Shown here: piece by piece, positions 12,427-52,422 of the stretch | Numbering within the stretch: the stretch's first letter is position 1 | Layout: each line of letters begins with the position of its first letter | Assembly: GCA_003599235.1 (NCBI GenBank) | Contig: QZJE01000007.1 | Location: 16,585-80,584 of the forward strand | Direction of reading: 5' to 3' | Origin: Actinomycetota bacterium | Lineage (GTDB): Bacteria > Actinomycetota > Aquicultoria > SURF-47 | Length of the DNA stretch: 64,000 nucleotides | The notes under the pieces: generated by a model | Databases searched by the model: none | What the model saw: only the letters and a program-made list of their open reading frames with translations | What the model was told of the DNA's origin: nothing | Program-made: the position numbers and the translations under genes

Positions 12427-12439
12427 AAAACCCTAACCA

Positions 12440-14577: not shown

Positions 14578-14624
14578 TTTTTTCCTCCCTTATCCCTTAA
14601 CACTTATCCCTCATCCCTGAAGCA

Positions 14625-15593
14625 CTAAGGGTACACCCCTAGTGCTTCTAGTCCTTCCCATTCATTTAAACCAAACATAATGTTCATGTTCTGTATTGCC
14701 TGGCCGGCAGCCCCTTTAACCAGGTTATCTATAACACTCATAATAAAAACCTTGCCGCCTTTCTCATCTACCTCTAGACCAATATGGCAATAGTTAGAAC
14801 CTAAAACCGCTTTTAATTCAGGATATTGCTCATCCAAGATATTTACAAAATAGGCGTCCTGATAAAAACTTTTATAATGGTCAACTAATTCCTCTTTTGA
14901 ATAATCCTTGGCTAAGTCTGCCACAACAGTACTGTATATTCCCCGGCTTACTGGTATTAGGTGAGGAGTAAAAGTTAATTTGGTATCATCTTCTGAAAGC
15001 TTGCTTAATTCTTGCTCCATCTCTGCAATATGTTGATGAACGTTGCCAACTTTGTAAGCACTGACATTAGCTTGATACTTGGCAAAAGAATACTCAGCTG
15101 ATGCTCCGGCACCACTTAATCCGCTCAAAGAATTGACTACAATGTTGCCGGCCATCTGATATTTTAGAGCCGGCGCCAATGCCAATATTATACTAGTAGG
15201 GTAACACCCGGGGTTAGCAATTAAGCTAGCCTGCTCTATCTTGTCCTTATTTAACTCGCATAAACCATAAACCGCCTCATTATTATCTATTCGGTAATCT
15301 TGCGACAAATCGATTACTTTGAGGCCGCCCTCTAAAAGTTCAGGCACAAACTTCTTAGAAACTCCGTGAGGCAATGCCGTAAATACTACATCGCACTTAG
15401 CTTTGATTTTGGTTGCGTCATAGCCCTCAAAAATAATATCAGCAGCAATATTGGGATATAACTCCTGAATATGCTTATTTGCATAGCATTTTGAGGTAGC
15501 ACTAAGAACTTCTACTTGTTTATGGTGCTTAAGTAAGCGCACAATTTCCGCTCCGGAATATCCTGATGCACCCACCACTGCCGCTCTTATCAT
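14625..15593 (-). CDS. argC: N-acetyl-gamma-glutamyl-phosphate reductase
   Basis: ArgC family (GASGYSG NAD-binding motif, catalytic Cys region). The longest ORF starts at 15626. The start at 15593 (MIRAAVVGASGYSG) has a GGGAG RBS 5 nt upstream and places the ARG-box-like palindrome in the promoter rather than in coding sequence. Confidence 0.85.
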   Translation of the reverse strand: MIRAAVVGASGYSGAEIVRLLKHHKQVEVLSATSKCYANKHIQELYPNIAADIIFEGYDATKIKAKCDVVFTALPHGVSKKFVPELLEGGLKVIDLSQDYRIDNNEAVYGLCELNKDKIEQASLIANPGCYPTSIILALAPALKYQMAGNIVVNSLSGLSGAGASAEYSFAKYQANVSAYKVGNVHQHIAEMEQELSKLSEDDTKLTFTPHLIPVSRGIYSTVVADLAKDYSKEELVDHYKSFYQDAYFVNILDEQYPELKAVLGSNYCHIGLEVDEKGGKVFIMSVIDNLVKGAAGQAIQNMNIMFGLNEWEGLEALGVYP

Positions 15594-15609
15594 ATTAACT
15601 CCCGTTTTA

Positions 15610-15633
15610 TGTATAATTTTAAACAATTATACA
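15610..15633 (-). promoter_or_regulatory. ARG-box-like operator (9-bp inverted repeat TGTATAATT-N6-AATTATACA) overlapping a TATAAT -10-like hexamer upstream of argC
   Basis: Perfect 9/9 inverted repeat about 10 nt upstream of the argC RBS, in the AT-rich intergenic region after pheT. It resembles the AT-rich palindromic ArgR/AhrC boxes (TGAAT-N-ATTCA type). Confidence 0.45.
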
Positions 15634-28200: not shown

Positions 28201-28542
28201 TGCATTACTGACCATACCTTTACTGGCTAAATTATCAGCCTCATCCTTGTTAGTGTTAAACCTGCGGAGTGCCGTTAAATAAGTGTCTCCTAACCACCCT
28301 TGGCCAGTATAAGGATTATATCCATGATACATCCACCAAGCTGCCTGATCTTCATCAGAAGAACCATCAGCTAATTTTTGCTTGTTTGATCTTACAATCT
28401 CCGAGCTTACATAATCAGCAGCAATTGAAGTCATATTCTTGTGAATGCCAGGATCATGAGCTTTGACTTTGTTGGTCAAGATAATAGGCATAATTAAGAT
28501 GATTATTAATATTGCAAAAGCCTTTAAAATTATACTTTTCAT
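19243..28542 (-). CDS. Giant secreted/cell-surface multidomain protein (3099 aa)
   Basis: Single uninterrupted 9.3-kb ORF. Residues 1-25 form a signal peptide/TM. Residues ~28-270 (nt ~27732..28461) resemble Bacillus cereus Zn-dependent PC-PLC (AFYSLGRAAHLLEDMASPSHVHS against AFFYLGLSLHYLGDVNQPMHAAN). Residues ~390-560 are an unknown alpha/beta domain. Residues ~570-1230 and ~1850-2730 carry many CARDB/Ig-like beta-sandwich repeats. Residues ~1235-1815 (nt ~23100..24840) hold about 14 PD40 beta-propeller repeats (xVWxDxRNGNxDIYxYDL). Residues ~2735-2815 are a Big/OmpL47-type Ig-like domain (GWYTSDVNVSL...TEYSLDNGATWQ). Residues ~2818-2912 are an FN3 domain. The C-terminal ~90 residues form a lysine/arginine-rich tail. 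Confidence 0.8.
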   Translation of the reverse strand: MKSIILKAFAILIIILIMPIILTNKVKAHDPGIHKNMTSIAADYVSSEIVRSNKQKLADGSSDEDQAAWWMYHGYNPYTGQGWLGDTYLTALRRFNTNKDEADNLASKGMVSNAFYSLGRAAHLLEDMASPSHVHSKPHGSIIGGDSTEDYFKAHWENSTRPSGSLSLRSMAYYTFDRSLWRTADYDFQLHNSFTNLTLSPFRQTWVEYFPLGLYPYDLSGEDGEAVNKWYLDELAPAAIGSVKSLIEDFVYSNHLLDHPGNDHPDDNYSSSSIVNTDFTSLKQEMNKFLRLAVKKGTLNSFLKSKRMLDELEKYQVLQGSGASKEELDNQEKVISNLSRDINNNALQISADWKATPDIQLLKTGFYFADRKFLDNINEPYIDVTPEEFDPTSSKSNQILIIPTGGLTGLDTSEVFKEKLKKCAEEGGTIICFDQQYGRYFNALPGNISGAGWREDISCYGDSTRISKIHPIFSGQTSTVLNLPVDGYLYNCPSNSEILSMRVANNMPDIVAYPYNKGMIIVTSSMLDWSYGMRSISSSERTLFEDIISWAKNPNENIQVVKANEALAVSQYIKNLTKYSAKKVKLILTNRDRKPVANRVVDINLDAGETTSIEYESNPISNNLGINYIDYELHGVNDEIIQPQSEGKRFSSIEPQEGVNIPSKISISINDPNKFYPQGCSVPVTATVYNNSEHDTWINVKYLKRYAGTQIDHLEDTVLIKAEQSAVVGFIATNIASNELFCLSAKSIDDSCSSTCVKEILSFFPDLEMKQTTNKDAFDISENMTLTNQISNPYGYSLVCNLLTKITDPDNKVIKSITRPIILNANDLYVASDELILKDISTKTGNYQINTEILINRSLKNKSINKIKIFCKPDIKVNNQNIPSLHVGRNSTQITFGNEGAYYDGEINLSVINPLNIELFSESKPIVIGRETKIIDFYPNFPEVELGNYKFNYSIDNSPLYSSTISSSARVFSKQQKNIFKIRDFVNWPIDIVNDGSFDYENVVVSFAIDDNYLQQYQLFSKSNSVTPLSIPVELSEDLLPGQHNVRVSLQIGTSFTSTDCKIYTPAALLQTDLSDGNYHPGDDVTVNLENTGGVDTDYIYEINLHGSFGQDILNIQSGASSVKAGEEQSINFSIPQEVVRGDYYLKANFTNLSTGEKAKIYEKIFIDGANAEMIVRTDKTAYLHGQIANSLTNIINGSNQVDNGSLSLQVFKDGLGIMAGPKTKLDCGPQLAKQRDPAVWQNKVVWVDNRSSRDEIYLYDFGSREESKVAASTSDFISDIQIFENNILWNENNSIYVYDLANKGQYKLPYSYNDAVISGNRVVGIRSMGFVNKVCIFDLVTKTEEVLWPDYYNNQNKPAISGNRLLFVDNRTSKPSVVMYDLESKSASQISSDYSCGYANYEKLAITNNKAMWFRTEDNKHYLYLYDFLSGTEERIAEVQHLSFYEPSTPCLSDDKVVWTDCSTEDMPYGWKVCVYDIETKTTQRIDSSGAMQISPDVQGEILVWEDYRNGNADIFMYDIDDNTASQVNSNASMGTSVSEQVMPVVDNNRAIWAESSDLSNSLCVYDLQMKEKRRIDTGICMEPLLGDNKLAISGDMMVWSGGTNGGGLEIISYDLITNKMRELSNSYQSPCIDPDIYEDTVVWADFFGEITTFNMLTGELRGIGLGLSPSIDNNNIVWSFNDDIYLLNTITNTRRNLTSDSFEQLLPSISGDTIVYQDNRNGNWDIYVYGITTQKEQRITSNASDQTEPTIDGNMIAWTDNRNGNKDVYGYDLETRTEFRVTSDSSDQYSPSVSGNNVVWQEDENGTSSVYLFNPGSPKETFWQKQMPISLAPNETSNISEAIGSIDATGKLYLQETLKSSNGQTIAKSIYPFYIFPGKTELSLNADKKAFKPNETITITGQLKNSAELPLENKVLNIYKNQEVIYTENISYLSSGESKPFSCTTTAADSFNLKATFVDATVDESVKIIQPKAELTFEAPSMVGISPFVLTATIKNAADIEFSGDLAFSDNNGILKQENITLQPGEQKIVDYSVAINKNTEFKAELTGDVTLTQTKTVSFGEKDDIALNQKEYYGQGKIIEIPFSITNSGLIDSSFDVAFSLNNESVIKSVYVPKGNVYDSTVTFSPQNAGTYYLAYQSSLFSGSSSVKVLKENDISLNTSFNLTPTPDGKITFTTKLTNGGFGSFCGKLKTGATFDSTEIEVEVAAGESKNTDSALRTAAATPGRHDILVEAIGVDGTVLANTSIPVEIKPAHFTITQEPQNLSFTTGEQATFNFKVKNTGNIEAQAELDFDSTGIFTDKKYEYIQPGEEKEIQVIFNTPIDLEEKSYPAIYNLAGQEQRTIDYQIKGIKINTEATLNKDVYMVGDHAFITLDIINESTLPEIEVYAKASSGDNEAKTDNFILNGSKQVTLDIPLNKGEEKISYGVYASTGRALYLNSLYARQENNTLSLIADKSVYNPGDTVNIEVKSSKPGTLKVNAPNYIKDLTISGDTSFNFQLPQELKGGTYPVDYSLDGESGQIFIDVDSLDLTINDSSLDKSVYNPQDTLKLNFKADCESAFDGKFIASIYDPTGKETKVMDTNRQLNAGKNDFSYDLELDTNTLGIHKLCYWIVKNGVVLDSGTQYFDITGISLTSIKTDKPLYCPADAVKLSYDVFSSQQSSANIQVIIDNNQVISNGVSVNGYQSFSYDLGSQKLGLHNIKVVAKTGNLESSLEAKIMITDTTSPVTSIIISGAKGDNGWYTSDVNVSLSAQDNADGLGIQKTEYSLDNGATWQVYDTAFSINREGIANLAYRSQDKAGNLEQDKQIELKIDKTSPSAPLLQEIPKHTRDYFINLNWLLSQDQIGLSGMSYYLLEYNIGDTNWQQVNTPIYMNNYTFADLMEKKSYSFRVKAVDNAGNASTYSNEVQTDVKKLPRIKFKGLSNSYIGGRFKINIESLDGFVPKTILLFLDNHEKAFGFRNPIIWNTRKVRNGPHIITAKAMDAMGDEEVTKLFVVVDNSKPRVKAYNVRARRGKVVKFKATIRDAFTGGLLYTKIIIKKGKKQIKTLKTGCQKIGVRRIIKTKAKLRKGSYEYFMYATDRAGNKQLRVAKARLVIL

Positions 28543-28826
28543 TTATTTTTTCTTTTTTGAATTAGCAGTCCAAATACAGCACCAATTAATAAATAAATCG
28601 TTGTCCCCAATATAGGAATATAGAGTTGATAAAAAATCGGGTTTTCAAAGGCAGATGGGAAAAAAACTAGTCCAATGATAAATAATGGAAGATCGAACAC
28701 TATTGCAAACAATGCTGATAGATTGAACTCACCAGTCGTAAAATTAGTAAATAAAATAAGCGAAACAACAAGATGTGTTAGCCCAAATACAATTGCATAT
28801 TTTTGCCATAGTTTCAAACGTTTCAT
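28539..28826 (-). CDS. Small three-TM membrane protein translationally coupled to the giant protein
   Basis: 95 aa with three hydrophobic helices and a KRKNK tail. Its stop overlaps the ATG of the giant ORF (ATGA). Confidence 0.5.
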   Translation of the reverse strand: MKRLKLWQKYAIVFGLTHLVVSLILFTNFTTGEFNLSALFAIVFDLPLFIIGLVFFPSAFENPIFYQLYIPILGTTIYLLIGAVFGLLIQKRKNK

Positions 28827-28999: not shown

Positions 29000-30460
29000 C
29001 TATGCCAGCTCGATAGCCTTTAGCAAGGCTTTGGCTTTGTTGATGGATTCTTTGTATTCGGCCTTGGGATCCGAATCATAAACTATCCCCGCGCCGGCTT
29101 GGATGTAGGCAGTGGAATCTTTAATCAATATAGTGCGAATAGCAATACAGGTATCTAAATCGCCTGAATAACTAAAATAGCCAATGGCTCCAGCATATGG
29201 TCCTCTTAGTGTTGGTTCCAGCTCATCTATTATTTCCATGGCCCTGATTTTAGGCGCTCCCGATACTGTGCCTGCCGGAAAAACGCTTCTTAGAGCATCA
29301 AAAGCATTCTTGTCCTTTTCAAGCTTGCCGACCACGTTACTAACCATATGCATAACATGGGAATACTTCTCGACAAACATAAAGTCGGTTACTTCAACAG
29401 TGCCTGGCTCTGATACTCTGCCTAAGTCATTTCTTCCTAAATCTACCAGCATCAGGTGCTCGGCTTTCTCTTTTTCATCATTTAGCAGCTCTATTTCAAA
29501 CTTCGCATCTTCTGCTGCGTCAATACCCCGCCTTCTGGTGCCGGCAATCGGACGTGTTACAACATCATAACCCTCAACCTTTACTAGAGGTTCAGGGGAT
29601 GAGCCTACTAATTTAAAACCATCGAACTTTAAGTAGTACATATATGGTGAGGGATTTAGGGTCCTAAGTACTCTGTACACATCAAAGGATGGAACCTCTA
29701 TCTTGGCTTCAAAGCGCTGCGAAAGAACCACTTGGATGATATCACCAGCTACAATATAGTCTTTGGCTTTTTCTACCATATCGATAAATTGCTGTTCAGA
29801 GAGGTTAGAGGAAATATTAACTTCTTTTTTATTGGAAAAATCTTTTATTTGAACAGAAGGGATGCTTCGGCTTAACTCACCGATTATTTTGTCTATTTTC
29901 TTAAGTGTCTGGTTGTATACTTCTTCTACGTCACCCTTAATGTGAGCATTAACCACCACTTTTATTTTGTGCTTTAGGTGATCGAAAACCAGAAGATTAT
30001 CGGTGAATACAAAGATAGTCTCCGGCACATCTAAGTCGGATTTGCCGCTTTTAGGAATATCCTCAAAATAACGGATATTATCATAGCCCAGATAACCAAC
30101 CGCTCCTCCTTGAAATGGCGGCAATCCCTCGATATGAGCCGGTTTGTAGGGAGATAAAAGCTCCTTTATGGTAACCAAAGGGTCAACTACATTATCAATA
30201 ACCTTATTAACCTGGCCTTTTACCTTAGCTTTTCTATTACCAATAGTTACCACCAGATAAGGATTATTGCCTAGAAAAGAATAACGGGCATACCTTTGAG
30301 CCCCCTCTACACTTTCTAATAAAAAGGAGTAATCGGATTCTCCTAATTTTAGAAAAGCAGATACCGGTGTTTCTAAATCTGCCACAATCTCCCGGTAGAC
30401 CGGTATTAGGTTATGTTCTTTGGCTAGCTTCTTAAAGTCCTTTAGTGTAGGTGAGTACAT
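29000..30460 (-). CDS. Chorismate-binding enzyme: anthranilate synthase component I (TrpE) or aminodeoxychorismate synthase (PabB) family
   Basis: 486 aa with PIAGTRRRG...LMLVDLGRNDLGRV...GAPKIRAMEIIDELE...GYFSYSGDLDTCIAIRT motifs typical of TrpE/PabB. No glutamine amidotransferase partner or other trp genes are adjacent. It lies at the 3' end of the his operon. Confidence 0.75.
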   Translation of the reverse strand: MYSPTLKDFKKLAKEHNLIPVYREIVADLETPVSAFLKLGESDYSFLLESVEGAQRYARYSFLGNNPYLVVTIGNRKAKVKGQVNKVIDNVVDPLVTIKELLSPYKPAHIEGLPPFQGGAVGYLGYDNIRYFEDIPKSGKSDLDVPETIFVFTDNLLVFDHLKHKIKVVVNAHIKGDVEEVYNQTLKKIDKIIGELSRSIPSVQIKDFSNKKEVNISSNLSEQQFIDMVEKAKDYIVAGDIIQVVLSQRFEAKIEVPSFDVYRVLRTLNPSPYMYYLKFDGFKLVGSSPEPLVKVEGYDVVTRPIAGTRRRGIDAAEDAKFEIELLNDEKEKAEHLMLVDLGRNDLGRVSEPGTVEVTDFMFVEKYSHVMHMVSNVVGKLEKDKNAFDALRSVFPAGTVSGAPKIRAMEIIDELEPTLRGPYAGAIGYFSYSGDLDTCIAIRTILIKDSTAYIQAGAGIVYDSDPKAEYKESINKAKALLKAIELA

Positions 30461-31104
30461 TATTTCCAGCGCCTTCGCAGTTCGTTTTCTACTTCATCGA
30501 AGCTGATATCTTTCTCTGCTAATAAAACCAGTAAGTGGTATAGCAGGTCAGCTACTTCCCAAATTACCTCTTTGTTTTCCTTAATCATAGCCGCTTCGAT
30601 GACCTCTTCTGATTCCTCATCAACTTTAGCCAATATCTTATCTAGGCCTTCTGCTAAAAGTTTGGCAGTATAAGATCCTTCCGGTTTATCCTTTTTGCGT
30701 TGCAGAATAACAGAATATAGCTGCTCAATTACACTGCCGTCGACAGCTGAAGTAAGCTCTGTAATTTCTTCAGAGCCAAGGACTCCTTTTTTTAGCTCCC
30801 GGTGAAAACAAGTTCTTTCTCCTGTATGGCAAGCTGGTCCTTTGGGCTTAGCCATAATTAACAATGTATCGTTATCGCAATCATACAAAATGTCTTTTAC
30901 CAACTGATAATTGCCAGAGGTCTCCCCTTTTAACCAGAGTTTCCCGCGACTTCTGCTAAAAAACCAAGCTTTGCCGCTCTCTAAGGTTTTTTCCAAGGCT
31001 TCTTTATTCATATAAGCCATCATCAGGACATCTTTAGTTTTATAATCCTGAACTATGGCCGGAATTAACCCATCTTTATCGAATTTTAGATTATTAATGC
31101 TCAT
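30460..31104 (-). CDS. hisI: Bifunctional phosphoribosyl-AMP cyclohydrolase / phosphoribosyl-ATP pyrophosphatase
   Basis: 214 aa. The N-terminal half is HisI (metal-binding CHTGERTCF region) and the C-terminal half is HisE (MazG-like). GGAG RBS upstream. Confidence 0.85.
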
Positions 31105-31114
31105 GTCAACTCCA

Positions 31115-31257
31115 AGTAATTGTTTGTGCTTTCAAAAACGTGTCGCAGGCCTAGCTAGCATGGTTTCCCGACTTGTCGGGAATAGCTGGCCGAGACTCGA
31201 GCAGCATTTTCTCGCCGGGAAAATGACTGCGTATTTTAGAAAGCACAAACAATTACT
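31115..31257 (-). ncRNA. GC-rich ~143-nt structured element between hisF and hisIE, closed by a perfect 19-bp inverted repeat (AGTAATTGTTTGTGCTTTC / GAAAGCACAAACAATTACT)
   Basis: The arms at 31115..31133 and 31239..31257 are exact reverse complements. The ~100-nt interior is ~60% GC (against ~38% around it) and has internal hairpins (TTCCCGAC-TTGT-GTCGGGAA, GCTGGCCGAG/CTCGAGCAGC). The right arm overlaps the hisF stop codon, and the left arm ends about 5 nt before the hisIE RBS. Confidence 0.4.
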
Positions 31258-32086
31258 ATAATCTAACTGCAATTCCCTTATCCCTCATTGCCTCTTTAAC
31301 CTGCCTAATCGATAGCTCTCCATAGTGAAACAAAGACGCTGCCAGTACCGCATCGGCATCTGATTCTTTTACTACTTCGCTAAAATGCTCTAGGGTTCCT
31401 GCTCCGCCGGATGCAATAACCGGCACATTAACCGCTCTAGTTACTTGCTTAGTTAATTCTAGCTCATAACCATCTTTAGTGCCGTCCCTATCCATGCTGG
31501 TTAGCAAAATCTCTCCGGCTCCAAAAGAAACTACCTTCTTTGCCCACTCAATGGCATCAAGACCCGTGGGTGTACGCCCACCGTTGATGTAGACCTGATA
31601 CCAGTCCTCGGGGTCCTGTCGCTGGGGAATCCCGCCGTGCTCAGCAAGCTTGCGACGCGGCGGGAGCCCTTCTTCGCGCCACCCCTCGGCCTTTGCATCT
31701 ATAGCCACCACAATGCACTGGCTACCAAACTTTCTGGCGCATTCTGTAATAATTGACGGGTCTTTAATGGCAGCTGTGTTGATGGCTACCTTATCACAGC
31801 CGGTTGCCAGCATCTTACGGACATCTTCAACTCCTCTTATTCCACCGCCTATTGTATATGGAATAAATACCTGTTCAGCTACCTTGCTAGCAACATCTAA
31901 CATGATATTGCGCTCCTCATGGGAGGCAGTAATGTCTAAAAAAACCAGCTCGTCAGCCCCTTCTTTGTCGTAGACAGAAGCAAGCTCTACCGGATCGCCG
32001 GCATCTCTGATATCAACAAAATTTATCCCTTTAACTACCCTGCCCTTATCAACATCAAGACAAGGAATAATACGCTTAGCTAGCAA
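31256..32086 (-). CDS. hisF: Imidazole glycerol phosphate synthase cyclase subunit
   Basis: 276 aa, (beta/alpha)8 HisF (IIPCLDV, ...SGGAG). It carries a ~20-aa GC-rich in-frame insertion ([30 protein letters not shown]) in the loop after AIDAK. Confidence 0.9.
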
Positions 32087-32801
32087 CTATTAATACATCT
32101 CCTAAATCTAGTTGTCCTTCATATAAAGCAGTCCCTATTATTGCCCCTTCTACTCCCAAGTACTCCAGCTTCCTAAGGTTTTTAATATCCTCAAGAGTAG
32201 TTATTCCTCCTGAAGCAATAATTGCCATATCTGTGACCTCTGTTACTTCTTGTAAAAGCGCAAGATTGGGACCCTTTTGCATGCCATCAGTTAAAATATC
32301 AGTTAGAACCAGCCTTTTTATCCCTTGGCTATTAAGTGACTTTACCAAATCAATTGTCTTTACCTCGGTTACACTTTGCCAGCCATCGACGGCAATTAAG
32401 CCGTTATTGCTATCAATGCTAGCAACAAGCTTTTCAGCACCAAAATACCTACGGACCTCTGATAATAAATCCCTGTTACGCACTATGCTAGTACCAAGAA
32501 TCACTCTTTGAACCCCTATTGAGAGGGCTTGCTCAATATATTTCATATTCCGCATTCCCCCGCCAAGCTGGATGGGAATATCTACAGCTTTAATAATATC
32601 TTCAGCTGAATCCAGATTAGCAGGCTTGCCATCCTTGGCCCCCTCTAAATCCACAACGTGCAGATATTTGGCGCCTTTAGACTGCCATTTAAGAGCCATT
32701 TTAACCGGATCCTCCCCATAGACCTTTTTCCGGTCATACTCCCCTTGTTTTAAGCGCACGCACTTGCCCTCTATTAAATCGATTGCCGGAAAGATAATCA
32801 T
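32076..32801 (-). CDS. hisA: ProFAR isomerase (1-(5-phosphoribosyl)-5-[(5-phosphoribosylamino)methylideneamino]imidazole-4-carboxamide isomerase)
   Basis: 241 aa, HisA TIM barrel (IIFPAIDL, ...ASGGI). Confidence 0.85.
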
Positions 32802-33400
32802 TTAATAATCTCCAAAAAATTACCAAGTATCTTAAGACCAATTTTTCCACTTTTTTCGGGATGGAACTGTACTCCATAAATATTTTCTTTACAAATAAAA
32901 GAGGTAAAATCTGTTCCATAGTCCGTCGTGGCTACAACAACATCTTCCTTTGAGGTTGCATGGTAGGAATGTACAAAGTATACGTTTGGATTACCGGCTA
33001 TGCCTTTAAGTAAAGGATTTTCTTGTTTGACATCAAGCTGGTTCCAGCCGATATGAGGCACCTTAACCTCATCTGGCAAACGGACAATCTCGCCTTTAAT
33101 TAGCCCCAAACCGGCATTTTCCCCACCTTCATAGCTTTTTTCAAACAATACCTGAAGTCCCAGACAAATGCCTAGATAGGGTTTTCCTTGTTCTATTAAA
33201 CCCGCAACTGCTTTATCAAGCCCAGTAGAGATTAACCTGTCCATGCAATCGGCAAAAGCCCCCACGCCAGGCAAAACCACGGCATCGCTATTTAAGATAT
33301 CACCTGGATTAGAGGTAACTTTAACCTGGGCCCCTAAATACTCAAAAGCCTTCTCCACACTTCTTAAGTTTCCCATTCCATAATCAACTATTGCTATCAA
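32798..33400 (-). CDS. hisH: Imidazole glycerol phosphate synthase glutamine amidotransferase subunit
   Basis: 200 aa, class I GATase with the catalytic Cys in GICLGLQ and a His/Glu pair near the C-terminus. Confidence 0.85.
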   Translation of the reverse strand: MIAIVDYGMGNLRSVEKAFEYLGAQVKVTSNPGDILNSDAVVLPGVGAFADCMDRLISTGLDKAVAGLIEQGKPYLGICLGLQVLFEKSYEGGENAGLGLIKGEIVRLPDEVKVPHIGWNQLDVKQENPLLKGIAGNPNVYFVHSYHATSKEDVVVATTDYGTDFTSFICKENIYGVQFHPEKSGKIGLKILGNFLEIIK

Positions 33401-33437: not shown

Positions 33438-34031
33438 CTATCCATCCATGCTTCCTTTTGTCGAAGGCACTCCTTCTATTCTCTCATCAATTTGAGTAGC
33501 CATATCCATAGCCCGTGCCATTGCTTTAAAAATAGCCTCGATCATGTGATGAGTATCTTTGCCTGATAAGAGCCTGACATGCAAGGTCATGGCAGCATGA
33601 TTAACAAAAGCATGCAAAAACTCCGTAACTAATGAAGTATCAAACCCACCGATATTTTCTTTAGGAAGCGGCGCCTCGAATACAAGATGTGAACGGCCCG
33701 CTAAATCCAAGGCTACCATAGCCAAAGATTCATCCATTGGAAGCAAGCTATAACCATATCTCTTTATCTGCTTTTTTTCTCCTAGCGCCCGCCTGAAAGC
33801 TTGCCCTAAGCTGATGCCGACATCTTCTACCGTGTGGTGGCCTCCGACATCTAAGTCCCCTTTAGCTGAAATAGTTAAGTCGAACAATCCATGTTTAGCA
33901 AATAGCTCCAGCATGTGATTAAGAAATGGAATGCGTGTCTCTATCTTGTATTTAGCACTTCCGTCAATGTTTAATTCAACATTAATTTGCGTCTCCATGG
34001 TTTCTCTCTTAATTGTTGCTTGCCTTGCCAT
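33438..34031 (-). CDS. hisB: Imidazoleglycerol-phosphate dehydratase
   Basis: 197 aa with IGPD signature motifs (GHHTVEDVGISLGQAF, HHMIEAIFKAMARA). Confidence 0.85.
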   Translation of the reverse strand: MARQATIKRETMETQINVELNIDGSAKYKIETRIPFLNHMLELFAKHGLFDLTISAKGDLDVGGHHTVEDVGISLGQAFRRALGEKKQIKRYGYSLLPMDESLAMVALDLAGRSHLVFEAPLPKENIGGFDTSLVTEFLHAFVNHAAMTLHVRLLSGKDTHHMIEAIFKAMARAMDMATQIDERIEGVPSTKGSMDG

Positions 34032-34989
34032 TTTCTCCTCCTAAAAATGAAAGTATTTTATTAATGTCATCACTTACTATATCTGCTAATTGCAAAAAAC
34101 GTTCTGTGTCTTTATTTACCGCTGCCGAGATAAAGCTATTTTTACCTGTTTCTTTGTTGTAATTAGCTACCGTTTTAGCATCATCTACAGTGTCCCCGAT
34201 ATATACTCCTCTTGATAACCCCATTCTAGCACTTAGTTTAATTAGAGAATCAGGATGCGGTTTCACCATACTGTTGCCATCATCATAGACTATAAAGTCG
34301 TCATCTATTTGATTAATAATAGTTATTTTTTCTACAGCTATTTGCACTTCTTCTTTTGTGCGGCCGGTTAAAATGCCTACTTTGGGCCAAAAAGGACTCA
34401 GTAATTCCTTGTCTATCAATATTTCCTCTTTGTTAATCAAGCCTTTTTCTTTAATATATCTAGGGTCAAATCCATATAACCGGCGGCAATAATCAACTCC
34501 TCCAAAAAGCTCTTGGAATATTTGCTTGATTAGAGCTGTATTCCACAAAGATAGAACCTGCTGCTTGTCTTTTTTACTTAAGTTATCTAATAAGCTCTTT
34601 TTAGCTCCTTTAAGACCGCCTCCTGGCGCTAAACTTCTAACCCAGTCTTGCAAAAATGGCGCCTGCCTTCTTAGGATACCAACGTTCTTTTCATCAAACT
34701 TAAGAGTCTTAACCAGGTAAAATAAGCAAACGGCAAAAGTTAAATCCCAATCGTTATTAAAGCCTCCGGCATTTTTAAAAAGAGTAGTCTCTTGTGGCTC
34801 TATTAACTTAGCTTGGCCTTGATATTTTAGTATTTGGTGAAAGTAGTATTGAGTTGTCTGGCTGATGCACTGGCGAAACGATTCAGAGACTTCTAAAACT
34901 ACCCCGTCGATGTCTAAAACAAGACCGTCAACATCTATATTAAGCCCTTTTTTAATCCACACTCCGTTTTGTTGAATAAAATTGTTCAT
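34009..34989 (-). CDS. HAD-superfamily hydrolase with large cap domain (candidate histidinol-phosphate phosphatase)
   Basis: 326 aa with HAD motif I LVLDIDGVVLEV, motif II TGR, motif III K...HPD and motif IV GDTVDD. It is embedded between hisD and hisB with overlapping ends. Confidence 0.6.
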   Translation of the reverse strand: MNNFIQQNGVWIKKGLNIDVDGLVLDIDGVVLEVSESFRQCISQTTQYYFHQILKYQGQAKLIEPQETTLFKNAGGFNNDWDLTFAVCLFYLVKTLKFDEKNVGILRRQAPFLQDWVRSLAPGGGLKGAKKSLLDNLSKKDKQQVLSLWNTALIKQIFQELFGGVDYCRRLYGFDPRYIKEKGLINKEEILIDKELLSPFWPKVGILTGRTKEEVQIAVEKITIINQIDDDFIVYDDGNSMVKPHPDSLIKLSARMGLSRGVYIGDTVDDAKTVANYNKETGKNSFISAAVNKDTERFLQLADIVSDDINKILSFLGGENGKASNN

Positions 34990-34998
34990 GTTGCTCCA

Positions 34999-36303
34999 TC
35001 AAAATCGCCGAGGGGGTACTTCCTCTCTTACTGCAATTGATCTGCTATGAGCATCTAGGCCTTCTGCTTCTGCTATTGTTTTGGCGCTTTTAGCCATATC
35101 CATAAAACCTTCTTTAGATATCCACAAGAAGGAAGGCTTTTTTATAAAACACTCAACTGATAAAGCCGAGTAAAAACGAGCGGTGCCCATCGTCGGCAAC
35201 ACGTGATTAGGGCCGGCAATATAGTCGCCTAAAGCCTCTACGCTAAAGTCGCCAACAAAAATCGCCCCTGCATTTTGCACTTGATTAATATAGTTAGTAG
35301 CCTTCTCTACCATTATCTCTAAGTGCTCTGGGGCAATAATGTTAGCAACTTCCACCGCTTTATCGAGTCCATCAACTAAAAAGATGCGTCCTCGTTGTCT
35401 AATGGAATCGCTAGCGATCTTACTTCGCAATATCTGTTTTAGCTGGTCATCGAGTTCTTTTTTTACTTTTTCGGCAATGTCGTTTGAATCAGTTATTAGT
35501 ATAGCTGTAGCGTCTTGTGCATGTTCTGCTTGGGCCAGCATGTCAGAGGCAACATAGACCGGATTAGCCGATGAATCAGCAATGATTACTATCTCGCTAG
35601 GCCCAGCTATCATATCAATGTCAACTTGGCCTATAACCTCTTTCTTTGCTGCCGTTACATAGATATTCCCGGGGCCTACTATCTTATCTACCTTTTTTAT
35701 ACTCCTTGTGCCATAGGCCATAGCAGCTATGGCAGATGCCCCACCGATCTTGTAGATCTCCTTAATGCCGCAAACATCCGCTGCTACAAGGGTTTTAGGA
35801 TTTATCTGGCCTTCTAAATCCGGCGGTGAACAAAGAGCAATTTCTGCCACTTTTGCAACTATTGCAGGAATTGCCCCCATTAGAACCGATGACGGATAGC
35901 TAGCCTGGCCTCCGGGAGCATAAACCCCAGCTCTCTTAAGGGGGCGGATAAGCTGCCCTAATGTTGATCCCTTGTCCTTGATAAACCATTCTTTGGGTAA
36001 CTGATTTTCATGAAAGGCAAAAATCCGCCCGTAAGCATCTTTAATAGCAGCTATATAATCCAAACTGACTTTCTTTTTTGCATCTTTAATTTCTTCTTGG
36101 CTTACTCTTAGTTCATCTACACTAAACTCGTGCCCCTCTATTTCTTTGATAAGCCTAAGAATGGCCTCGTCACCATCGGCTTTTACTTCCTCAACTATTT
36201 TTTTGGCTACCTCTGTTTCAGAAGCGTCTTCAATGTTTATCCTGGTAAAATTAGCCAACACATCTTTTTCTTTAATTAGCCCCGATAAACGCACGGTTTT
36301 CAT
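34999..36303 (-). CDS. hisD: Histidinol dehydrogenase
   Basis: 434 aa, HisD family (Zn/NAD-binding motifs, AQAEHAQDA region). Confidence 0.9.
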   Translation of the reverse strand: MKTVRLSGLIKEKDVLANFTRINIEDASETEVAKKIVEEVKADGDEAILRLIKEIEGHEFSVDELRVSQEEIKDAKKKVSLDYIAAIKDAYGRIFAFHENQLPKEWFIKDKGSTLGQLIRPLKRAGVYAPGGQASYPSSVLMGAIPAIVAKVAEIALCSPPDLEGQINPKTLVAADVCGIKEIYKIGGASAIAAMAYGTRSIKKVDKIVGPGNIYVTAAKKEVIGQVDIDMIAGPSEIVIIADSSANPVYVASDMLAQAEHAQDATAILITDSNDIAEKVKKELDDQLKQILRSKIASDSIRQRGRIFLVDGLDKAVEVANIIAPEHLEIMVEKATNYINQVQNAGAIFVGDFSVEALGDYIAGPNHVLPTMGTARFYSALSVECFIKKPSFLWISKEGFMDMAKSAKTIAEAEGLDAHSRSIAVREEVPPRRF

Positions 36304-36926
36304 ATTTTTAGCCTTTTAATAAACTTTTCAATTTCTTCTGCTTTTAGCTTGTTGCTGACATAATTAGCAATTAAACGGGCGCTGCATTCATATGACTTGT
36401 CAAGTACAACCAGATTATTCTCCTTTAGGGTTTTACCGGTGCTGCTTAAGTCATATATTTGGTCAGCCAAGCCCACTATGGGAGCAAGCTCTATTGAGCC
36501 TCTTAGCTTGATAATCTCAGCTTGTAATCCTTTTGCAGAAAAATACATAGAAGTAATACTTGGATATTTTGTAGCTACTCGATATTGACCCAATTGGTCG
36601 TAGCTTTTCTTTGTATTCTCAACTGATTTAGACAAGCCAGCTAATATAAATTGACACCAACCAAACCCCAAATCTGCTAATTCAAAAACCTCTCGGCTTT
36701 CTTCCATTAAGGCATCTTTGCCAGCTATCCCTAAGTCTGCTGCTCCGTATTCTACATAAGTGGCAACATCACTCGGGCGTGCTAGAATAAAACTTAATGT
36801 CCCACTCTTCAGGTAAAGACGGCGGCTTTCTTCTTCTAGAGCGCTAACATCAAACTCACTCTTTTTTAAAAGCTCTATGGTTGGTTTTAATAAAACACCT
36901 TTTGAGAGGGCAATTTTTAGGCTCAC
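36300..36926 (-). CDS. hisG: ATP phosphoribosyltransferase, short form
   Basis: 208 aa, HisG short form (needs HisZ). GAADLGIAGKD motif. Confidence 0.85.
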   Translation of the reverse strand: MSLKIALSKGVLLKPTIELLKKSEFDVSALEEESRRLYLKSGTLSFILARPSDVATYVEYGAADLGIAGKDALMEESREVFELADLGFGWCQFILAGLSKSVENTKKSYDQLGQYRVATKYPSITSMYFSAKGLQAEIIKLRGSIELAPIVGLADQIYDLSSTGKTLKENNLVVLDKSYECSARLIANYVSNKLKAEEIEKFIKRLKI

Positions 36927-37993
36927 TTTGCCCTCCTTAGTTTTAAAATGTCCTCGAGAAGCGCTTTGCTGGACATGCCAACCCTGACACTTGATTTGTC
37001 TTTGGTTGATATTTTTACTTTTTGCCCGGCTAGAGCAATATGGAGACGCTCAAGCCCGATAGCAAAACCAGCTGAAGGCATATCTACTCCAAAAGTCTTT
37101 AGTAAGCCATCATAGCGGCCTCCTCCGGCAATAGGCAGCCCCACCTGCGGAGAATATGCCTCAAAAACCACACCCGTGTAGTAATCGAAATCACGCACTA
37201 TTGATAAATCAAAAACCACATTTTCTAAATAACCATAAGATTGTATTAATGATTTTATTTTTATTAAGTTATTTAAAGCAGCCTGACTTTTTATGTTTCC
37301 TGCTAGCTCTTTGGCTTGTGTTAAGACATATTTTCCGTTAAGAGTGATTGCTTTTAACAAAGCATCTTTTGACTTTTTGGAAGCCTTCATTCTTTTAAGA
37401 AAAACCGATAAGCCGACCAAGTTTTTCCTGGCAATCAGTTTTCTTATCTCTTTGGCTACTTCTACATCTTTGGTTAATTGCTCAATTAATCCGTTAACAA
37501 AATCTATTTGACCAATGCCTACCCTAAAATCCCTAAGACCAACTTTTTTTAAAGTTTCGATCAAAATGATAATTGTTTCTGCATCACTAAAACCTGAACT
37601 GCTGCCAATTAATTCTATTCCAGCTTGTAAGAATTGGCGTTGCTGGCCCTGACGAGGCTTTTCTTGCCTAAAAACATCGGCGACATACGATAGGCGAATC
37701 GGTGTGGGCCCTTGAGAATATCTTTGAGCTACCAGGCGAGCAATCGGTGTTGTCATCTCCGGCCTAAGTGCTAACAATGCCCCATCGCTATCAAAAAACT
37801 TGAAAACCTCACCCGTTATAAAATCCCCTGTTTGGGCCGTCAGTAAGTCGTAGTATTCAAAGGCCGGAGTCTTGATACTTAAGTAACCCCATGACTTAAA
37901 AGCCTTTTTGGTTATCTCTTTAATTTTACTTAGCTCGCGTTCCTCCTTGGGCAATATATCTTTTAGCCCCGAGGGAACTGTTGGTTGCTTCAT
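36923..37993 (-). CDS. hisZ: ATP phosphoribosyltransferase regulatory subunit (HisS paralogue)
   Basis: 356-aa class II aaRS-like core without the anticodon-binding domain. It overlaps hisG, consistent with the short-form HisG arrangement. Confidence 0.7.
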   Translation of the reverse strand: MKQPTVPSGLKDILPKEERELSKIKEITKKAFKSWGYLSIKTPAFEYYDLLTAQTGDFITGEVFKFFDSDGALLALRPEMTTPIARLVAQRYSQGPTPIRLSYVADVFRQEKPRQGQQRQFLQAGIELIGSSSGFSDAETIIILIETLKKVGLRDFRVGIGQIDFVNGLIEQLTKDVEVAKEIRKLIARKNLVGLSVFLKRMKASKKSKDALLKAITLNGKYVLTQAKELAGNIKSQAALNNLIKIKSLIQSYGYLENVVFDLSIVRDFDYYTGVVFEAYSPQVGLPIAGGGRYDGLLKTFGVDMPSAGFAIGLERLHIALAGQKVKISTKDKSSVRVGMSSKALLEDILKLRRAK

Positions 37994-51245: not shown

Positions 51246-51815
51246 ATGGTTATGCAAAAAGCAATCATTAAAAGTCTAGAAGAAAGCGCTAACACAAAAA
51301 ACGCTTTAACAGAGTTTAGCGATGTAATTGAGTTAGCCGCTAAACTTGTTATCAAAACTTATCATAACAAAGGCAAGGTGCTGCTTCTGGGAAACGGTGG
51401 AAGTGCTGCCGATGCCCAGCATATTGCAGCAGAGTTCGTGGTCCGTTTTGCTAAAAGCCGTTTATCTTTACCGGCCATCGCTCTGTCATGTAACTCTTCA
51501 ATAATCACCGCCTGCAGCAATGATACTGAATTTAACGAAGTTTTCAGAAAACAGATAGAATCATTAGCCCAACACGGAGATTGCATAATCGCTATTACAA
51601 CTAGCGGGACTTCTCTAAACATAATAAACGCTGTTAAGGAAGCCAAGAAGAAGAGATGTTCGGTTATTAGCTTAATTGGTAAAAAACACTCACCTCTTTG
51701 CAGCCTTTCGGATGTTTGTATTGCTGTCCCATCTAGCAGTACGCCCCGCATCCAAGAAGCCCACATCACCATCGGCCACATCATTTGTCAACTGGTCGAA
51801 GAAACCTTGTTTTAG
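51246..51815 (+). CDS. gmhA: Phosphoheptose isomerase (sedoheptulose-7-phosphate isomerase, SIS domain)
   Basis: 189 aa with the SIS-domain motif LLLGNGGSAADAQHIAAEF. Confidence 0.8.
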   Translation: MVMQKAIIKSLEESANTKNALTEFSDVIELAAKLVIKTYHNKGKVLLLGNGGSAADAQHIAAEFVVRFAKSRLSLPAIALSCNSSIITACSNDTEFNEVFRKQIESLAQHGDCIIAITTSGTSLNIINAVKEAKKKRCSVISLIGKKHSPLCSLSDVCIAVPSSSTPRIQEAHITIGHIICQLVEETLF

Positions 51816-51822
51816 ACATCAG

Positions 51823-52422
51823 ATGTCAGACTTCAGTCGTCAGGAAACATCAAACAAACGTCATTGCGAGGAGGCCAATAGCCGACGTGGCAATCTCAGA
51901 CATAAGGCAGTCTTCCTAGACCGCGATAATACCATTATCGAAGACGAAGAAGGATATCTCTCTAATCCTAACAAAGTAAAACTGCTTCCAGGAGCAGCAG
52001 GCGCCATTAAGAAACTAAATGGAGCTGGGTTTAAGGTGATAATCGTAAGCAATCAGTCTGGTATTGGACGCGGATTAATTACAGAGGAACAACTTGGTCA
52101 AGTTAATCAAAAGATGCTCGAACTTTTAGCTGAAGAAGGTGCTAAGATAGATGCTATATACTATTGCCCTCACCATCCCGAAGCCGATATAGAGAAATAC
52201 CGAATGATATGTCCAGACAGAAAGCCAGCTCCCGGAATGCTCATTAAAGCCGCCGTAGAACATAATATCGACCTCAGTAAGAGCTATTGTGTTGGTGATA
52301 GTGAACGAGACATCCAAGCAGGCAAAAACGCCGGTTGCTCTACCTTAATGATTAGCGAGGAATTAGATCTAAAAAAAGCAGTAGAAATTATTTTGAATAA
52401 CTCTTTAGAATCTTATCGATAA
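51823..52422 (+). CDS. gmhB: D-glycero-D-manno-heptose 1,7-bisphosphate phosphatase (HAD, GmhB type)
   Basis: HAD motif I AVFLDRDNTII, then VSNQSGIGRG and CPHHPE (Zn-binding GmhB signature). The longest ORF starts at 51676 and overlaps gmhA in another frame. The ATG at 51823, just after the gmhA stop, is the likely start. Confidence 0.75.
   Translation: MSDFSRQETSNKRHCEEANSRRGNLRHKAVFLDRDNTIIEDEEGYLSNPNKVKLLPGAAGAIKKLNGAGFKVIIVSNQSGIGRGLITEEQLGQVNQKMLELLAEEGAKIDAIYYCPHHPEADIEKYRMICPDRKPAPGMLIKAAVEHNIDLSKSYCVGDSERDIQAGKNAGCSTLMISEELDLKKAVEIILNNSLESYR

What the first reader, a model, noticed from the sequence alone, without database searches (positions are those of the whole stretch)
34009..34989. 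Large-capped HAD hydrolase embedded in the his operon: candidate non-canonical histidinol-phosphate phosphatase; hisC absent from the operon
The operon hisZ-G-D-X-B-H-A-F-IE lacks recognisable HisC and HisN/HisJ. Gene X is a 326-aa HAD protein (DIDGVV, GDTVDD) with overlapping ends to hisD and hisB, implying co-translation with the pathway. Known histidinol-phosphatases are HAD fusions to HisB, PHP-type HisJ or IMPase-like HisN. This one would be a distinct standalone C1/C2-cap HAD type.
Basis: inference. Interest (0 to 1): 0.6.

Follow-up and report, generated by a model that had tools for sequence, protein, structure and literature searches.

The report
Archaeal-type histidinol-phosphate phosphatase in bacterial his operon
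The gene is a real phosphatase sitting inside the histidine-biosynthesis operon and most likely performs the "missing" histidinol-phosphate phosphatase step, but it belongs to an enzyme family already shown to do this in archaea, so it is a useful annotation rather than a new kind of enzyme.

Summary
A 326-aa HAD hydrolase (34009-34989, minus strand) lies between hisD and a monofunctional hisB, in the operon hisZ-G-D-X-B-H-A-F-IE. No hisC, PHP or IMPase gene occurs in the 64-kb window.

The histidinol-phosphate phosphatase (HolPase) reading is well supported, but the claim of a distinct new type is not. X is a full-length homologue, cap included, of the thaumarchaeal proteins represented by nmHisN (Nmar_1556). 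That enzyme was shown in vitro to be a specific HolPase (Kinateder 2024). The profile comparison gives hhalign probability 99.9%, E 2e-31. The closest solved structure is Thermococcus Tt82 (6iah), which carries the fingerprint reported for the T. onnurineus HolPase toHisN.

In 42 of 43 bacterial loci, X homologues sit directly beside hisD or hisC and/or hisB. These loci come from Actinomycetota, Atribacterota, Armatimonadota and others.

All HAD catalytic motifs are intact. Two of the four nmHisN specificity residues are kept (K72, D80). The other two differ (Y to F38, D to R39), as in haloarchaeal TIGR01548 proteins. This Arg-type clade has never been assayed.

Two details were wrong. hisD and X do not overlap (9-nt gap), and the cap is a single C1 helical insertion.

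Verdict: new member of a known kind, of moderate-low interest.

The parts
34009..34989 (-). Gene X: 326-aa HAD-IA phosphatase with a large helical C1 cap; candidate histidinol-phosphate phosphatase of the nmHisN/toHisN (TIGR01548-like) family
   Evidence: ORF. Pfam HAD_2/Hydrolase. TIGR01548 at 104.9 bits. hhalign against the Nitrosopumilales family: probability 99.9%, E 2.3e-31, 300 columns. AF2 pLDDT 92. Foldseek top hit 6iah.
34897..34914 (-). HAD motif I, DIDGVV (D26 nucleophile, D28 general acid/base)
   Evidence: Read directly from the sequence. D26, D28 and G29 are invariant in 19 homologues and in all 82 loci.
34390..34896 (-). C1 cap: a single all-helical insertion (about residues 32-200, some 9-10 helices) between motif I and motif II
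   Evidence: DSSP on the AF2 model: H35-53, 65-74, 80-98, 103-108, 113-119, 125-134, 139-148, 151-172, 184-187, 194-200. About residues 93-153 have no counterpart in the 240-aa 6iah.
34873..34878 (-). F38-R39, the positions equivalent to nmHisN specificity residues Y24-D25
   Evidence: Alignments to 6iah (ESYDEA versus ESFRQC) and to Nitrosopumilales (SYD). F38 is invariant and R39 is at least 90% conserved in close homologues.
34747..34776 (-). K72 and the GGFNNDW loop with D80, equivalent to nmHisN K56 and E64 (same 8-residue spacing)
   Evidence: Invariant K72, G76, F77, N78, N79, D80, W81. K and D/E are present in nearly all of 263 family members and in all 82 loci.
34360..34368 (-). HAD motif II (T208-G209-R210)
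   Evidence: Invariant in the alignment.
34261..34263 (-). HAD motif III lysine (K243)
   Evidence: Invariant K243-P244.
34180..34197 (-). HAD motif IV, GDTVDD (D266, D270 bind Mg2+)
   Evidence: Read from the sequence. G265, D266, D269 and D270 are invariant.
34009..34031 (-). 23-nt overlap of the X 3' end with the hisB start; AGGAGG lies inside X upstream of the hisB ATG (translational coupling is plausible)
   Evidence: Sequence. The hisB start is confirmed by a full-length match 1-194 to NF002115.
34990..34998 (-). 9-nt hisD-X spacer containing GGAG (no overlap)
   Evidence: Sequence.
34999..36303 (-). hisD, histidinol dehydrogenase (consumes the product of X)
   Evidence: PF00815 E 7e-163; TIGR00069.
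33438..34031 (-). hisB, monofunctional imidazoleglycerol-phosphate dehydratase (no fused HAD phosphatase domain)
   Evidence: PF00475 covers residues 32-175 of 197 aa. NF002115 scores 293 bits, above its cut-off. The bifunctional model NF003937 matches only its C-terminal half.
36923..37993 (-). hisZ
   Evidence: PF13393 E 1e-75.
36300..36926 (-). hisG (short form)
   Evidence: PF01634 E 8e-52.
32798..33400 (-). hisH
   Evidence: PF00117.
32076..32801 (-). hisA
   Evidence: ORF. It occupies the position of the PF00977 (His_biosynth) hisA genes in the related operons L001 and L002. It is a 26%-identical paralogue of the window's hisF. It was not itself scanned against Pfam.
31256..32086 (-). 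hisF
   Evidence: ORF. It occupies the position of the PF00977 hisF genes in L001 and L002. Not itself scanned against Pfam.
30460..31104 (-). hisIE
   Evidence: PF01502 plus PF01503.
51823..52422 (+). The only other HAD phosphatase in the window: a GmhB-like HAD-IIIA protein in a gmhA-gmhB/hldE heptose cluster (a rival HolPase source, judged unlikely)
   Evidence: NF006506 166.5 bits, TIGR01656 140 bits, hisB_Nterm TIGR01261 only 81 against a cut-off of 140. Neighbours are gmhA and hldE. The start codon was read from the translation.

Best explanation
[quoted passage not shown] It is a standalone Mg2+-dependent HAD phosphatase.

Inferred mechanism:
- D26 attacks the phosphate of L-histidinol phosphate to form an aspartyl-phosphate intermediate.
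- D28 acts as the general acid/base.
- T208 and K243 hold the phosphate.
- D266 and D270 bind Mg2+.
- The large all-helical C1 cap closes over the active site and selects the substrate through residues on its first helices and the GGFNNDW loop (F38, R39, K72, D80).

The gene is transcribed with hisD (upstream, 9-nt spacer) and is probably translationally coupled to hisB (23-nt overlap).

By descent it belongs to the family that includes the experimentally verified archaeal HolPases nmHisN and toHisN. Within that family it falls in the untested 'Arg-type' branch (F/Y-R-K-D), together with the haloarchaeal TIGR01548 proteins.

Shown here: gene, motifs, fold, homology and neighbourhood conservation. 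Inferred: substrate and in vivo role.
For: 1. Homology to a proven HolPase family.
- Kinateder et al. 2024 (PMC10804674) showed that Nmar_1556 (nmHisN) is specific for histidinol phosphate in vitro. It is a HAD protein with one large helical cap, encoded between hisC and hisB.
- The thaumarchaeal protein P0258 (Ca. Nitrosoabyssus) carries the nmHisN fingerprint Y-D-K-E with the same spacing. It is encoded in hisG-D-C-[P0258]-B-H-A-F. Its relatives are named Nitrosopumilales and Nitrosopumilus proteins.
- X against Nitrosopumilus sp. P0354: BLASTP 25% identity, E 2e-25.
- X-family profile against the Nitrosopumilales profile: hhalign probability 99.9%, E 2.3e-31, 300 columns end to end, for proteins of about the same length.

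2. Structure.
- The AF2 model has pLDDT 92 and pTM 0.85.
- The best PDB match is 6iah (Tt82, Thermococcus thioreducens): E 6.9e-11, TM 0.83 normalised to the target. The profile gives E 1.2e-23.
- 6iah carries Y18-D19-R48-D56, the Y-D-R-D fingerprint reported for toHisN.

3. Neighbourhood.
- In 43 bacterial loci the upstream neighbour is hisD in 24 and hisC in 14. The downstream neighbour is hisB in 30. In all, 42 of 43 have a his gene directly adjacent on the same strand.
- The loci come from Actinomycetota, Atribacterota, Armatimonadota/Abditibacteria, a Gemmatimonadales MAG and unclassified bacteria.
- Where the operon is fragmented, X stays paired with hisD alone (Fervidibacter) or with hisC alone (L036, L039, L046). 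These are the enzymes that consume its product and make its substrate.

4. All HAD catalytic residues are invariant, as are K72 and D80.

5. Need for the activity.
- hisB is monofunctional.
- No PHP or IMPase protein is present in the window.

6. In the NJ tree the bacterial sequences group by phylum, and X groups with the Actinomycetota MAGs.
Against: - Two of the four nmHisN specificity residues are replaced. Y24 becomes F38. D25 becomes R39, a charge reversal.
- Y24A and D25A each cut kcat/KM about 200-300-fold in nmHisN.
- Kinateder et al. wrote that the conserved Arg puts the HolPase function of such sequences in question, although they still judged them likely HolPases.
- No Arg-type member has been assayed.
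- X scores below the TIGR01548 cut-off.
- Only 64 kb of the genome could be examined, so another HolPase (PHP, IMPase) elsewhere cannot be excluded.
- From my memory of the 2019 structure paper, which is not in the library searched, Tt82 (the nearest solved structure) was described as having broad substrate specificity.
- Operon membership is correlative evidence.
Confidence: 0.85

Rival explanations
1. X is a HAD phosphatase with a different or broad substrate range, for example a housekeeping sugar-phosphate or nucleotide phosphatase. It merely travels with the his operon, and histidinol phosphate is dephosphorylated by another enzyme encoded outside the window.
For: - The specificity fingerprint is only half conserved: F38 and R39 replace Y and D.
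- The Arg-type clade is untested.
- Haloarchaeal members of the same clade are not near his genes.
- Only 64 kb of the genome was seen.
Against: - Adjacency to hisD or hisC and to hisB is kept in 42 of 43 bacterial loci from several phyla. It persists as two-gene hisD-X or hisC-X units when the operon is broken up.
- The characterised homologue nmHisN rejected nine other phosphorylated compounds.
- K72 is invariant. It is equivalent to K56, the residue with the strongest effect in nmHisN.
- Scattered his genes in haloarchaea explain the lack of linkage there. This rests on general knowledge plus the absence of his clusters in those loci.
Confidence: 0.1
2. The GmhB-like HAD-IIIA protein at 51823-52422 is the real HolPase, being related to the HisB N-terminal domain. 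On this reading X has some other accessory role in the operon.
For: - It passes the TIGR01656 'histidinol-phosphate phosphatase domain' subfamily model, scoring 140 bits against a cut-off of 84.
- From established knowledge, HisB-N and GmhB are sister groups.
Against: - Its best hit is GmhB (NF006506, 166.5 bits).
- The specific hisB_Nterm model TIGR01261 scores 81 against a cut-off of 140.
- It sits between gmhA and hldE in a heptose and glycan cluster 17 kb from the his operon.
- This reading leaves the conserved position of X in his operons unexplained.
Confidence: 0.03
3. X is a non-catalytic or regulatory HAD-fold protein, or a decaying gene retained by operon inertia.
For: None specific. 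The idea arises only because the Pfam core match is weak (32 bits).
Against: - All four HAD motifs and the cap loop are invariant across phyla.
- The ORF is intact and the structure model is confident.
- The ORF is full length relative to its homologues.
Confidence: 0.02

Closest known systems
nmHisN (Nmar_1556, Nitrosopumilus maritimus) and its Thaumarchaeota/Bathyarchaeota orthologues: HAD HolPase with one large helical cap (Kinateder et al. 2024, PMC10804674)
   Same: - Full-length homology including the cap (hhalign probability 99.9%, E 2e-31).
- Similar length: 322-325 aa for the Nitrosopumilales orthologues found here, against 326 aa for X.
- Single all-helical C1 cap.
- K and D/E specificity residues with the same 8-residue spacing.
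- Same operon slot, upstream of hisB and downstream of hisC or hisD.
   Different: - Only about 23-25% identity.
- Y24 becomes F38 and D25 becomes R39.
- Bacterial host.
- hisC is missing from this particular operon.
- X scores higher on TIGR01548 (105 bits) than the thaumarchaeal proteins do (75-83 bits).
- The sequence of Nmar_1556 itself was not available. Named Nitrosopumilales orthologues were used as a proxy.
toHisN (TON_0887, Thermococcus onnurineus; Lee et al. 2008, as cited in PMC10804674) and the solved Thermococcus thioreducens phosphatase Tt82 (PDB 6iah)
   Same: - Best sequence and structure match in the PDB.
- Same HAD core and the same first cap helices.
- R/K and D specificity positions are conserved.
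   Different: - Tt82 is 240 aa. It lacks the roughly 60-residue middle part of X's cap (X residues about 93-153) and the N-terminal beta-hairpin.
- Its fingerprint is Y-D-R-D, against F-R-K-D in X.
- Whether Tt82 is the orthologue of toHisN was not tested here.
NCBIfam TIGR01548 (HAD-SF-IA-hyp1), typified here by haloarchaeal proteins; this matches 'cluster II' of Kinateder et al.
   Same: - Same clade-level fingerprint, with Arg at the D25 position (Y-R-K-D against F-R-K-D).
- 29-34% identity.
- Sister position to the bacterial clade in the NJ tree.
   Different: - X scores 104.9 bits, below the 140.2 cut-off. A haloarchaeal member scores 223.
- Haloarchaeal genes are not linked to his genes.
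- Haloarchaeal proteins are shorter at the N terminus.
HisB-N (HAD-IIIA domain fused to IGPD, E. coli type), paHisN (PSP-like HAD, Pseudomonas), HisJ (PHP) and HisN (IMPase-like, Corynebacterium and most Actinobacteria)
   Same: They catalyse the same reaction. HisB-N and paHisN share the HAD core chemistry.
   Different: - Different cap architectures or entirely different folds.
- X gives no hit to TIGR01261, TIGR01656 or serB-type models at E<=0.01.
- Cultivated Actinobacteria use the IMPase-type HisN (PMC5516325), whereas this Actinomycetota MAG carries the archaeal-type enzyme in its operon.

Membership tests
HAD superfamily phosphatase (DDDD) | Motif I DxD, motif II S/T, motif III K, motif IV (G)DxxxD on a Rossmann-like core | tested here: met
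   D26/D28, T208, K243, D266/D270 are present and invariant in homologues. Pfam HAD_2 and Hydrolase score above their cut-offs. The AF2 core is of beta-alpha-beta type.
HAD subfamily IA (C1-capped) | A single helical cap inserted between motif I and motif II, with no C2 cap between motifs II and III | tested here: met
   Helices 35-200 lie between strand 22-25 and strand 204-207. Only a short segment separates T208 from K243. TIGR01549 HAD-IA scores 30.4, above its cut-off of 23.3.
nmHisN/toHisN-type HAD histidinol-phosphate phosphatases | Full-length sequence homology, including the cap, to nmHisN-clade proteins | tested here: met
   hhalign probability 99.9%, E 2.3e-31, 300 columns. BLASTP E 2e-25. 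phmmer E 1.3e-20 to P0258.
nmHisN/toHisN-type HAD histidinol-phosphate phosphatases | Specificity fingerprint Y24-D25-K/R56-D/E64 (Kinateder 2024) | tested here: not met
   X has F38-R39-K72-D80, so two of the four match (K and D). Y to F is conservative. D to R is the same exchange seen in Kinateder's cluster II and delta-proteobacterial sequences. Accessory hydrophobic positions: I42 is conserved, and V34 stands at the I20 position.
nmHisN/toHisN-type HAD histidinol-phosphate phosphatases | Gene located in a his cluster next to hisC/hisD and hisB | tested here: met
   The window has hisD-X-hisB. 42 of 43 bacterial loci have an adjacent his gene. The thaumarchaeal reference locus is hisC-[P0258]-hisB.
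nmHisN/toHisN-type HAD histidinol-phosphate phosphatases | Mg2+-dependent, specific hydrolysis of L-histidinol phosphate | not testable with these tools
   This needs an enzyme assay or complementation.
NCBIfam TIGR01548 (HAD-SF-IA-hyp1) | Whole-protein score at or above the curated cut-off of 140.2 bits | tested here: not met
   X scores 104.9 bits, E 3.7e-30. A haloarchaeal homologue scores 223, an Atribacterota homologue 127.7 and Nitrosopumilales homologues 75-83.
HisB-N / GmhB-type HAD-IIIA HolPase | Match to TIGR01261 or TIGR01656; capless or small-loop HAD-IIIA architecture, usually fused to IGPD | tested here: not met
   X gives no such hit at E<=0.01. hisB is IGPD only. X has a roughly 170-residue cap.
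PHP-type HisJ and IMPase-type HisN | PHP (PF02811) or inositol monophosphatase fold | tested here: not met
   X hits only HAD families, and its fold matches are all HAD.

The most novel reading that the evidence does not exclude
The Arg-type branch of this family (F/Y-R-K-D) comprises X, the other his-operon-embedded bacterial proteins and the haloarchaeal TIGR01548 proteins. On this reading the whole branch consists of genuine HolPases that recognise histidinol phosphate with a remodelled cap pocket, in which Arg replaces the Asp that is critical in nmHisN. If so, one family would supply the 'missing' hisN step in Atribacterota, Armatimonadota, deep-branching Actinomycetota and Halobacteria. 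The bacterial operon context found here would be the first independent evidence settling the doubt Kinateder et al. raised about the Arg-containing cluster.
Probability: 0.75. Interest if true: 0.4.

Novelty: new member of a known kind. Interest (0 to 1): 0.3.

Why it matters
Histidinol-phosphate phosphatase is the most frequently unassigned step of amino-acid biosynthesis. GapMind 2026 still finds no candidate in 20% of prototrophic genomes (bioRxiv 10.1101/2024.10.14.618325). In the text searches of that paper neither Kinateder nor Nmar appears.

X and its relatives are labelled only 'hypothetical protein' or 'HAD-IA family hydrolase' in public records. Assigning them as HolPases would close the histidine pathway in several poorly studied, mostly uncultivated phyla. 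It would also prevent false auxotrophy calls in MAG-based metabolic models.

The result shows that a member of the Actinomycetota uses an archaeal-type HolPase where cultivated Actinobacteria use the IMPase-type HisN.

It is an annotation gain and a modest extension of a 2024 discovery. It is not a new mechanism.

Tried and rejected
- The sequence of Nmar_1556 itself could not be obtained. Thaumarchaeal orthologues served as a proxy: P0258, named Ca. Nitrosoabyssus, plus Nitrosopumilus and Nitrosopumilales proteins.
- The exact protein P0001 is not on record in the contig index, so the rest of the MAG could not be inspected for hisC or another HolPase.
- An Rfam scan of the window found no leader, T-box or riboswitch. 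Promoter and terminator scans were at chance level.
- Literature searches for TIGR01548, 6IAH, Tt82 and Atribacter plus histidinol gave nothing relevant.
- The idea that X replaces HisC functionally was rejected. It has no PLP-enzyme features, and in relatives hisC and X co-occur side by side.
- The idea that the large cap is a unique expansion was rejected. Thaumarchaeal homologues have the same length and align end to end.
Full report
**Observation**

The window carries a compact histidine operon on the minus strand. Its order is hisZ (36923-37993), hisG (36300-36926), hisD (34999-36303), gene X (34009-34989), hisB (33438-34031), hisH, hisA, hisF and hisIE (30460-31104), followed directly by trpE.

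- X encodes 326 aa, with DIDGVV at residues 26-31 and GDTVDD at residues 265-270.
- hisB is a monofunctional IGP dehydratase. Its 197 aa match NF002115 from end to end, and it has no N-terminal HAD domain.
- tblastn with a HisC from a closely related operon finds nothing in the 64 kb.
- No ORF of 150 aa or more has an Aminotran_1_2, PHP or IMPase domain. The only aminotransferase is a class-III ArgD in the arg operon.

Two details in the finding are wrong.

- hisD and X are separated by 9 nt containing GGAG, so they do not overlap. Only X and hisB overlap, by 23 nt with an AGGAGG upstream of the hisB ATG.
- The cap is a single insertion between motifs I and II, which is a C1 cap and not 'C1/C2'.

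**What X is**

Pfam sees only the C-terminal HAD core. NCBIfam gives TIGR01548 (HAD-SF-IA-hyp1) at 104.9 bits, below the 140.2 cut-off.

The protein is identical to a 'hypothetical protein' of an Actinobacteria MAG. Its homologues, at 40-50% identity, come from Actinomycetota MAGs, Ca. Oleimmundimicrobium and Caldatribacteriota. Ca. Oleimmundimicrobium belongs to the class Ca. Aquicultoria. An exhaustive HMMER scan finds 970 clusters (50% identity) at E<=1e-3, and 78 at E<=1e-30.

An alignment of 19 homologues shows these residues to be invariant:

- D26, D28 and G29 (motif I)
- T208, G209 and R210 (motif II)
- K243 and P244 (motif III)
- G265, D266, D269 and D270 (motif IV)
- in the cap, F38, K72 and the loop G76-F-N-N-D80-W81

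AlphaFold2 gives a confident model with pLDDT 92 and pTM 0.85. It has a Rossmann-like core and an all-helical cap spanning about residues 32-200.

**Link to known enzymes**

Kinateder et al. 2024 (PMC10804674) showed that Nmar_1556 (nmHisN) hydrolyses histidinol phosphate with kcat/KM of about 1.1e4 M-1 s-1 and rejects nine other phosphorylated compounds. It is a HAD protein with one large, roughly nine-helix cap, encoded between hisC and hisB in Nitrosopumilus maritimus. They grouped it with toHisN of Thermococcus onnurineus (Lee 2008). They defined a specificity fingerprint Y24-D25-K/R56-D/E64.

- Among the representatives found with X is P0258, a protein of the thaumarchaeon Ca. Nitrosoabyssus. 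It has the Y-D-K-E fingerprint at exactly the nmHisN spacing and is encoded in hisG-D-C-[P0258]-B-H-A-F.
- X aligns to a Nitrosopumilus sp. orthologue (P0354, 324 aa) at 25% identity, E 2e-25.
- The X-family profile aligns to the Nitrosopumilales profile with probability 99.9%, E 2.3e-31, over 300 columns from N-terminal hairpin to C-terminal helix.
- The best PDB match by sequence and by fold is 6iah, phosphatase Tt82 of Thermococcus thioreducens (phmmer E 2.4e-13, profile E 1.2e-23, Foldseek E 6.9e-11, TM 0.83 on the target).
- 6iah carries Y18-D19-R48-D56, the Y-D-R-D fingerprint reported for toHisN. It lacks the middle part of X's cap, about residues 93-153.

X is therefore not a distinct HAD type. 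It is a bacterial member of this family and has the same size and architecture as the thaumarchaeal enzymes.

**Fingerprint**

Mapping through these alignments gives nmHisN Y24/D25/K56/E64 as X F38/R39/K72/D80.

- K and D/E are essentially universal in the 263 family members collected.
- The haloarchaeal proteins have Y-R-K-D. These are genuine TIGR01548 members scoring 223 bits.
- The bacterial proteins are mostly F-R-K-D or Y-R-K-D, with a few H, Y, S, M, P or K variants at the Arg position.

Kinateder et al. saw this Arg in their Euryarchaeota cluster II and in 22 delta-proteobacterial sequences. They wrote that it put HolPase function in question, although they judged those proteins likely HolPases. 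X belongs to this untested Arg-type branch.

**Genomic context**

A scan of GTDB species representatives found at least 458 loci encoding relatives, of which the best 80 were fetched. With two metagenomic loci added, 43 loci are bacterial. They come from Actinomycetota, a Coriobacteriia MAG, Atribacterota, Armatimonadota/Fervidibacter/Abditibacteria, a Gemmatimonadales MAG and unclassified bacteria.

| Position relative to X | Neighbour | Loci (of 43) |
|---|---|---|
| Upstream | hisD | 24 |
| Upstream | hisC | 14 |
| Downstream | hisB | 30 |
| Either side | at least one his gene directly adjacent, same strand | 42 |

The one exception is a 2.3-kb contig with almost no upstream sequence.

Three layouts occur:

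- hisD-hisC-X-hisB, in the closest Actinomycetota relatives; this is the thaumarchaeal order.
- hisD-X-hisB with hisC at the operon end, in several Atribacterota.
- hisD-X-hisB with no hisC nearby, in the window and in L001 and L009-L016.

Where the operon has broken up, X remains paired with hisD alone (Fervidibacter, followed by rapZ) or with hisC alone (L036, L039, L046). These are the enzymes immediately after and before the phosphatase step.

The 39 haloarchaeal loci show no linkage to his genes.

An NJ tree separates a thaumarchaeal clade, a haloarchaeal clade and a bacterial clade that groups largely by phylum. X sits among the Actinomycetota MAGs.

**Rivals**

The only other HAD phosphatase in the window is at 51823-52422 on the plus strand. 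It passes the broad TIGR01656 model. However, its best hit is GmhB, it fails the specific hisB_Nterm model (81 bits against a cut-off of 140), and it lies between gmhA and hldE in a heptose cluster. It is very unlikely to be the pathway enzyme.

A generalist or other-substrate role for X cannot be excluded without an assay. The D-to-R change and the reported breadth of Tt82 (from my memory of the 2019 paper, not verified here) keep that possibility open. It does not explain the tight and repeated pairing with hisC, hisD and hisB.

**Verdict**

The gene and operon are real. The HolPase assignment is well supported by inference (confidence about 0.85).

The absence of hisC from the operon is a lineage variant. 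It has no bearing on the role of X.

The novelty claim does not hold, because this enzyme type was described in 2008 and 2024. What is new here is modest but useful:

- The family is widespread in bacteria, well beyond the 22 delta-proteobacterial sequences noted in the literature.
- Bacterial members are almost always embedded in his operons.
- That context independently supports HolPase function for the Arg-type branch.

GapMind 2026 still reports hisN as missing in 20% of prototrophs, so the annotation has practical value.

I classify the finding as a new member of a known kind, with interest 0.3.

Noticed in passing
window 51246-53845: Heptose-nucleotide biosynthesis cluster: gmhA (51246-51815, +), a GmhB-like HAD-IIIA phosphatase (51823-52422, +; the listed TTG ORF from 51676 overlaps gmhA and is probably too long) and bifunctional hldE (52388-53845, -). 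This is unusual-looking for an Actinomycetota genome. It lies within a large glycan, rhamnose and ABC-2/Wzt exporter region (about 38-61 kb).
   Followed up: partly
window 29000-30460 (-); also L007 12760-14217: trpE (anthranilate synthase component I) follows hisIE with a 1-nt overlap and no trpG or other trp gene next to it. The same hisIE-trpE junction occurs in another Actinomycetota MAG (L007).
   Followed up: no
window 19243-28542 (-) and 28539-28826 (-): A 3099-aa ORF with an N-terminal hydrophobic segment and only weak Pfam hits in its C-terminal third (PD40, MG2/A2M, Big_13, fn3). It is preceded by an overlapping 95-aa membrane-protein ORF. GC is lower (0.35-0.37) than in the flanking biosynthetic operons.
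   Followed up: no
L017, L018, L020, L021, L023, L026, L029 (about 6500-8950 in L021); L036, L039, L046 (about 6900-8900): In Fervidibacter and other Armatimonadota the X homologue forms a two-gene hisD-X unit (rapZ downstream). In three unclassified bacteria it forms a two-gene hisC-X unit (ATP-dependent DNA ligase upstream; MerR, HSP20 and ClpB downstream). In these loci the rest of the his genes lie elsewhere.
   Followed up: partly
L041-L082 (haloarchaeal loci): Haloarchaeal TIGR01548 proteins (Y-R-K-D fingerprint) show no linkage to his genes within +/-8 kb. Their neighbours were not examined.
   Followed up: no
window 7346-15626 (-): Complete arginine operon argC-argJ-argB-argD-argF-argR-argG-argH, with the repressor gene embedded between argF and argG.
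   Followed up: no
window 2159-6833 (+): A cluster of a homocitrate/isopropylmalate synthase-like gene (HMGL plus HCS_D2), aconitase-family large and small subunits, and an isocitrate/isopropylmalate dehydrogenase. It could serve leucine biosynthesis or the alpha-aminoadipate lysine pathway. This was not resolved.
   Followed up: no
window 61248-63050 (-), 1603-2133 (-), 4729-5247 (+), 63463-63993 (-): ORFs of 600, 176, 172 and 176 aa with no Pfam match at E<=1e-3 or 1e-4.
   Followed up: no
window 55923-57230 (+): A B12-binding radical SAM protein sits inside the glycosyltransferase/methyltransferase cluster, between a Wzt-type ABC ATPase and methyltransferases.
   Followed up: no
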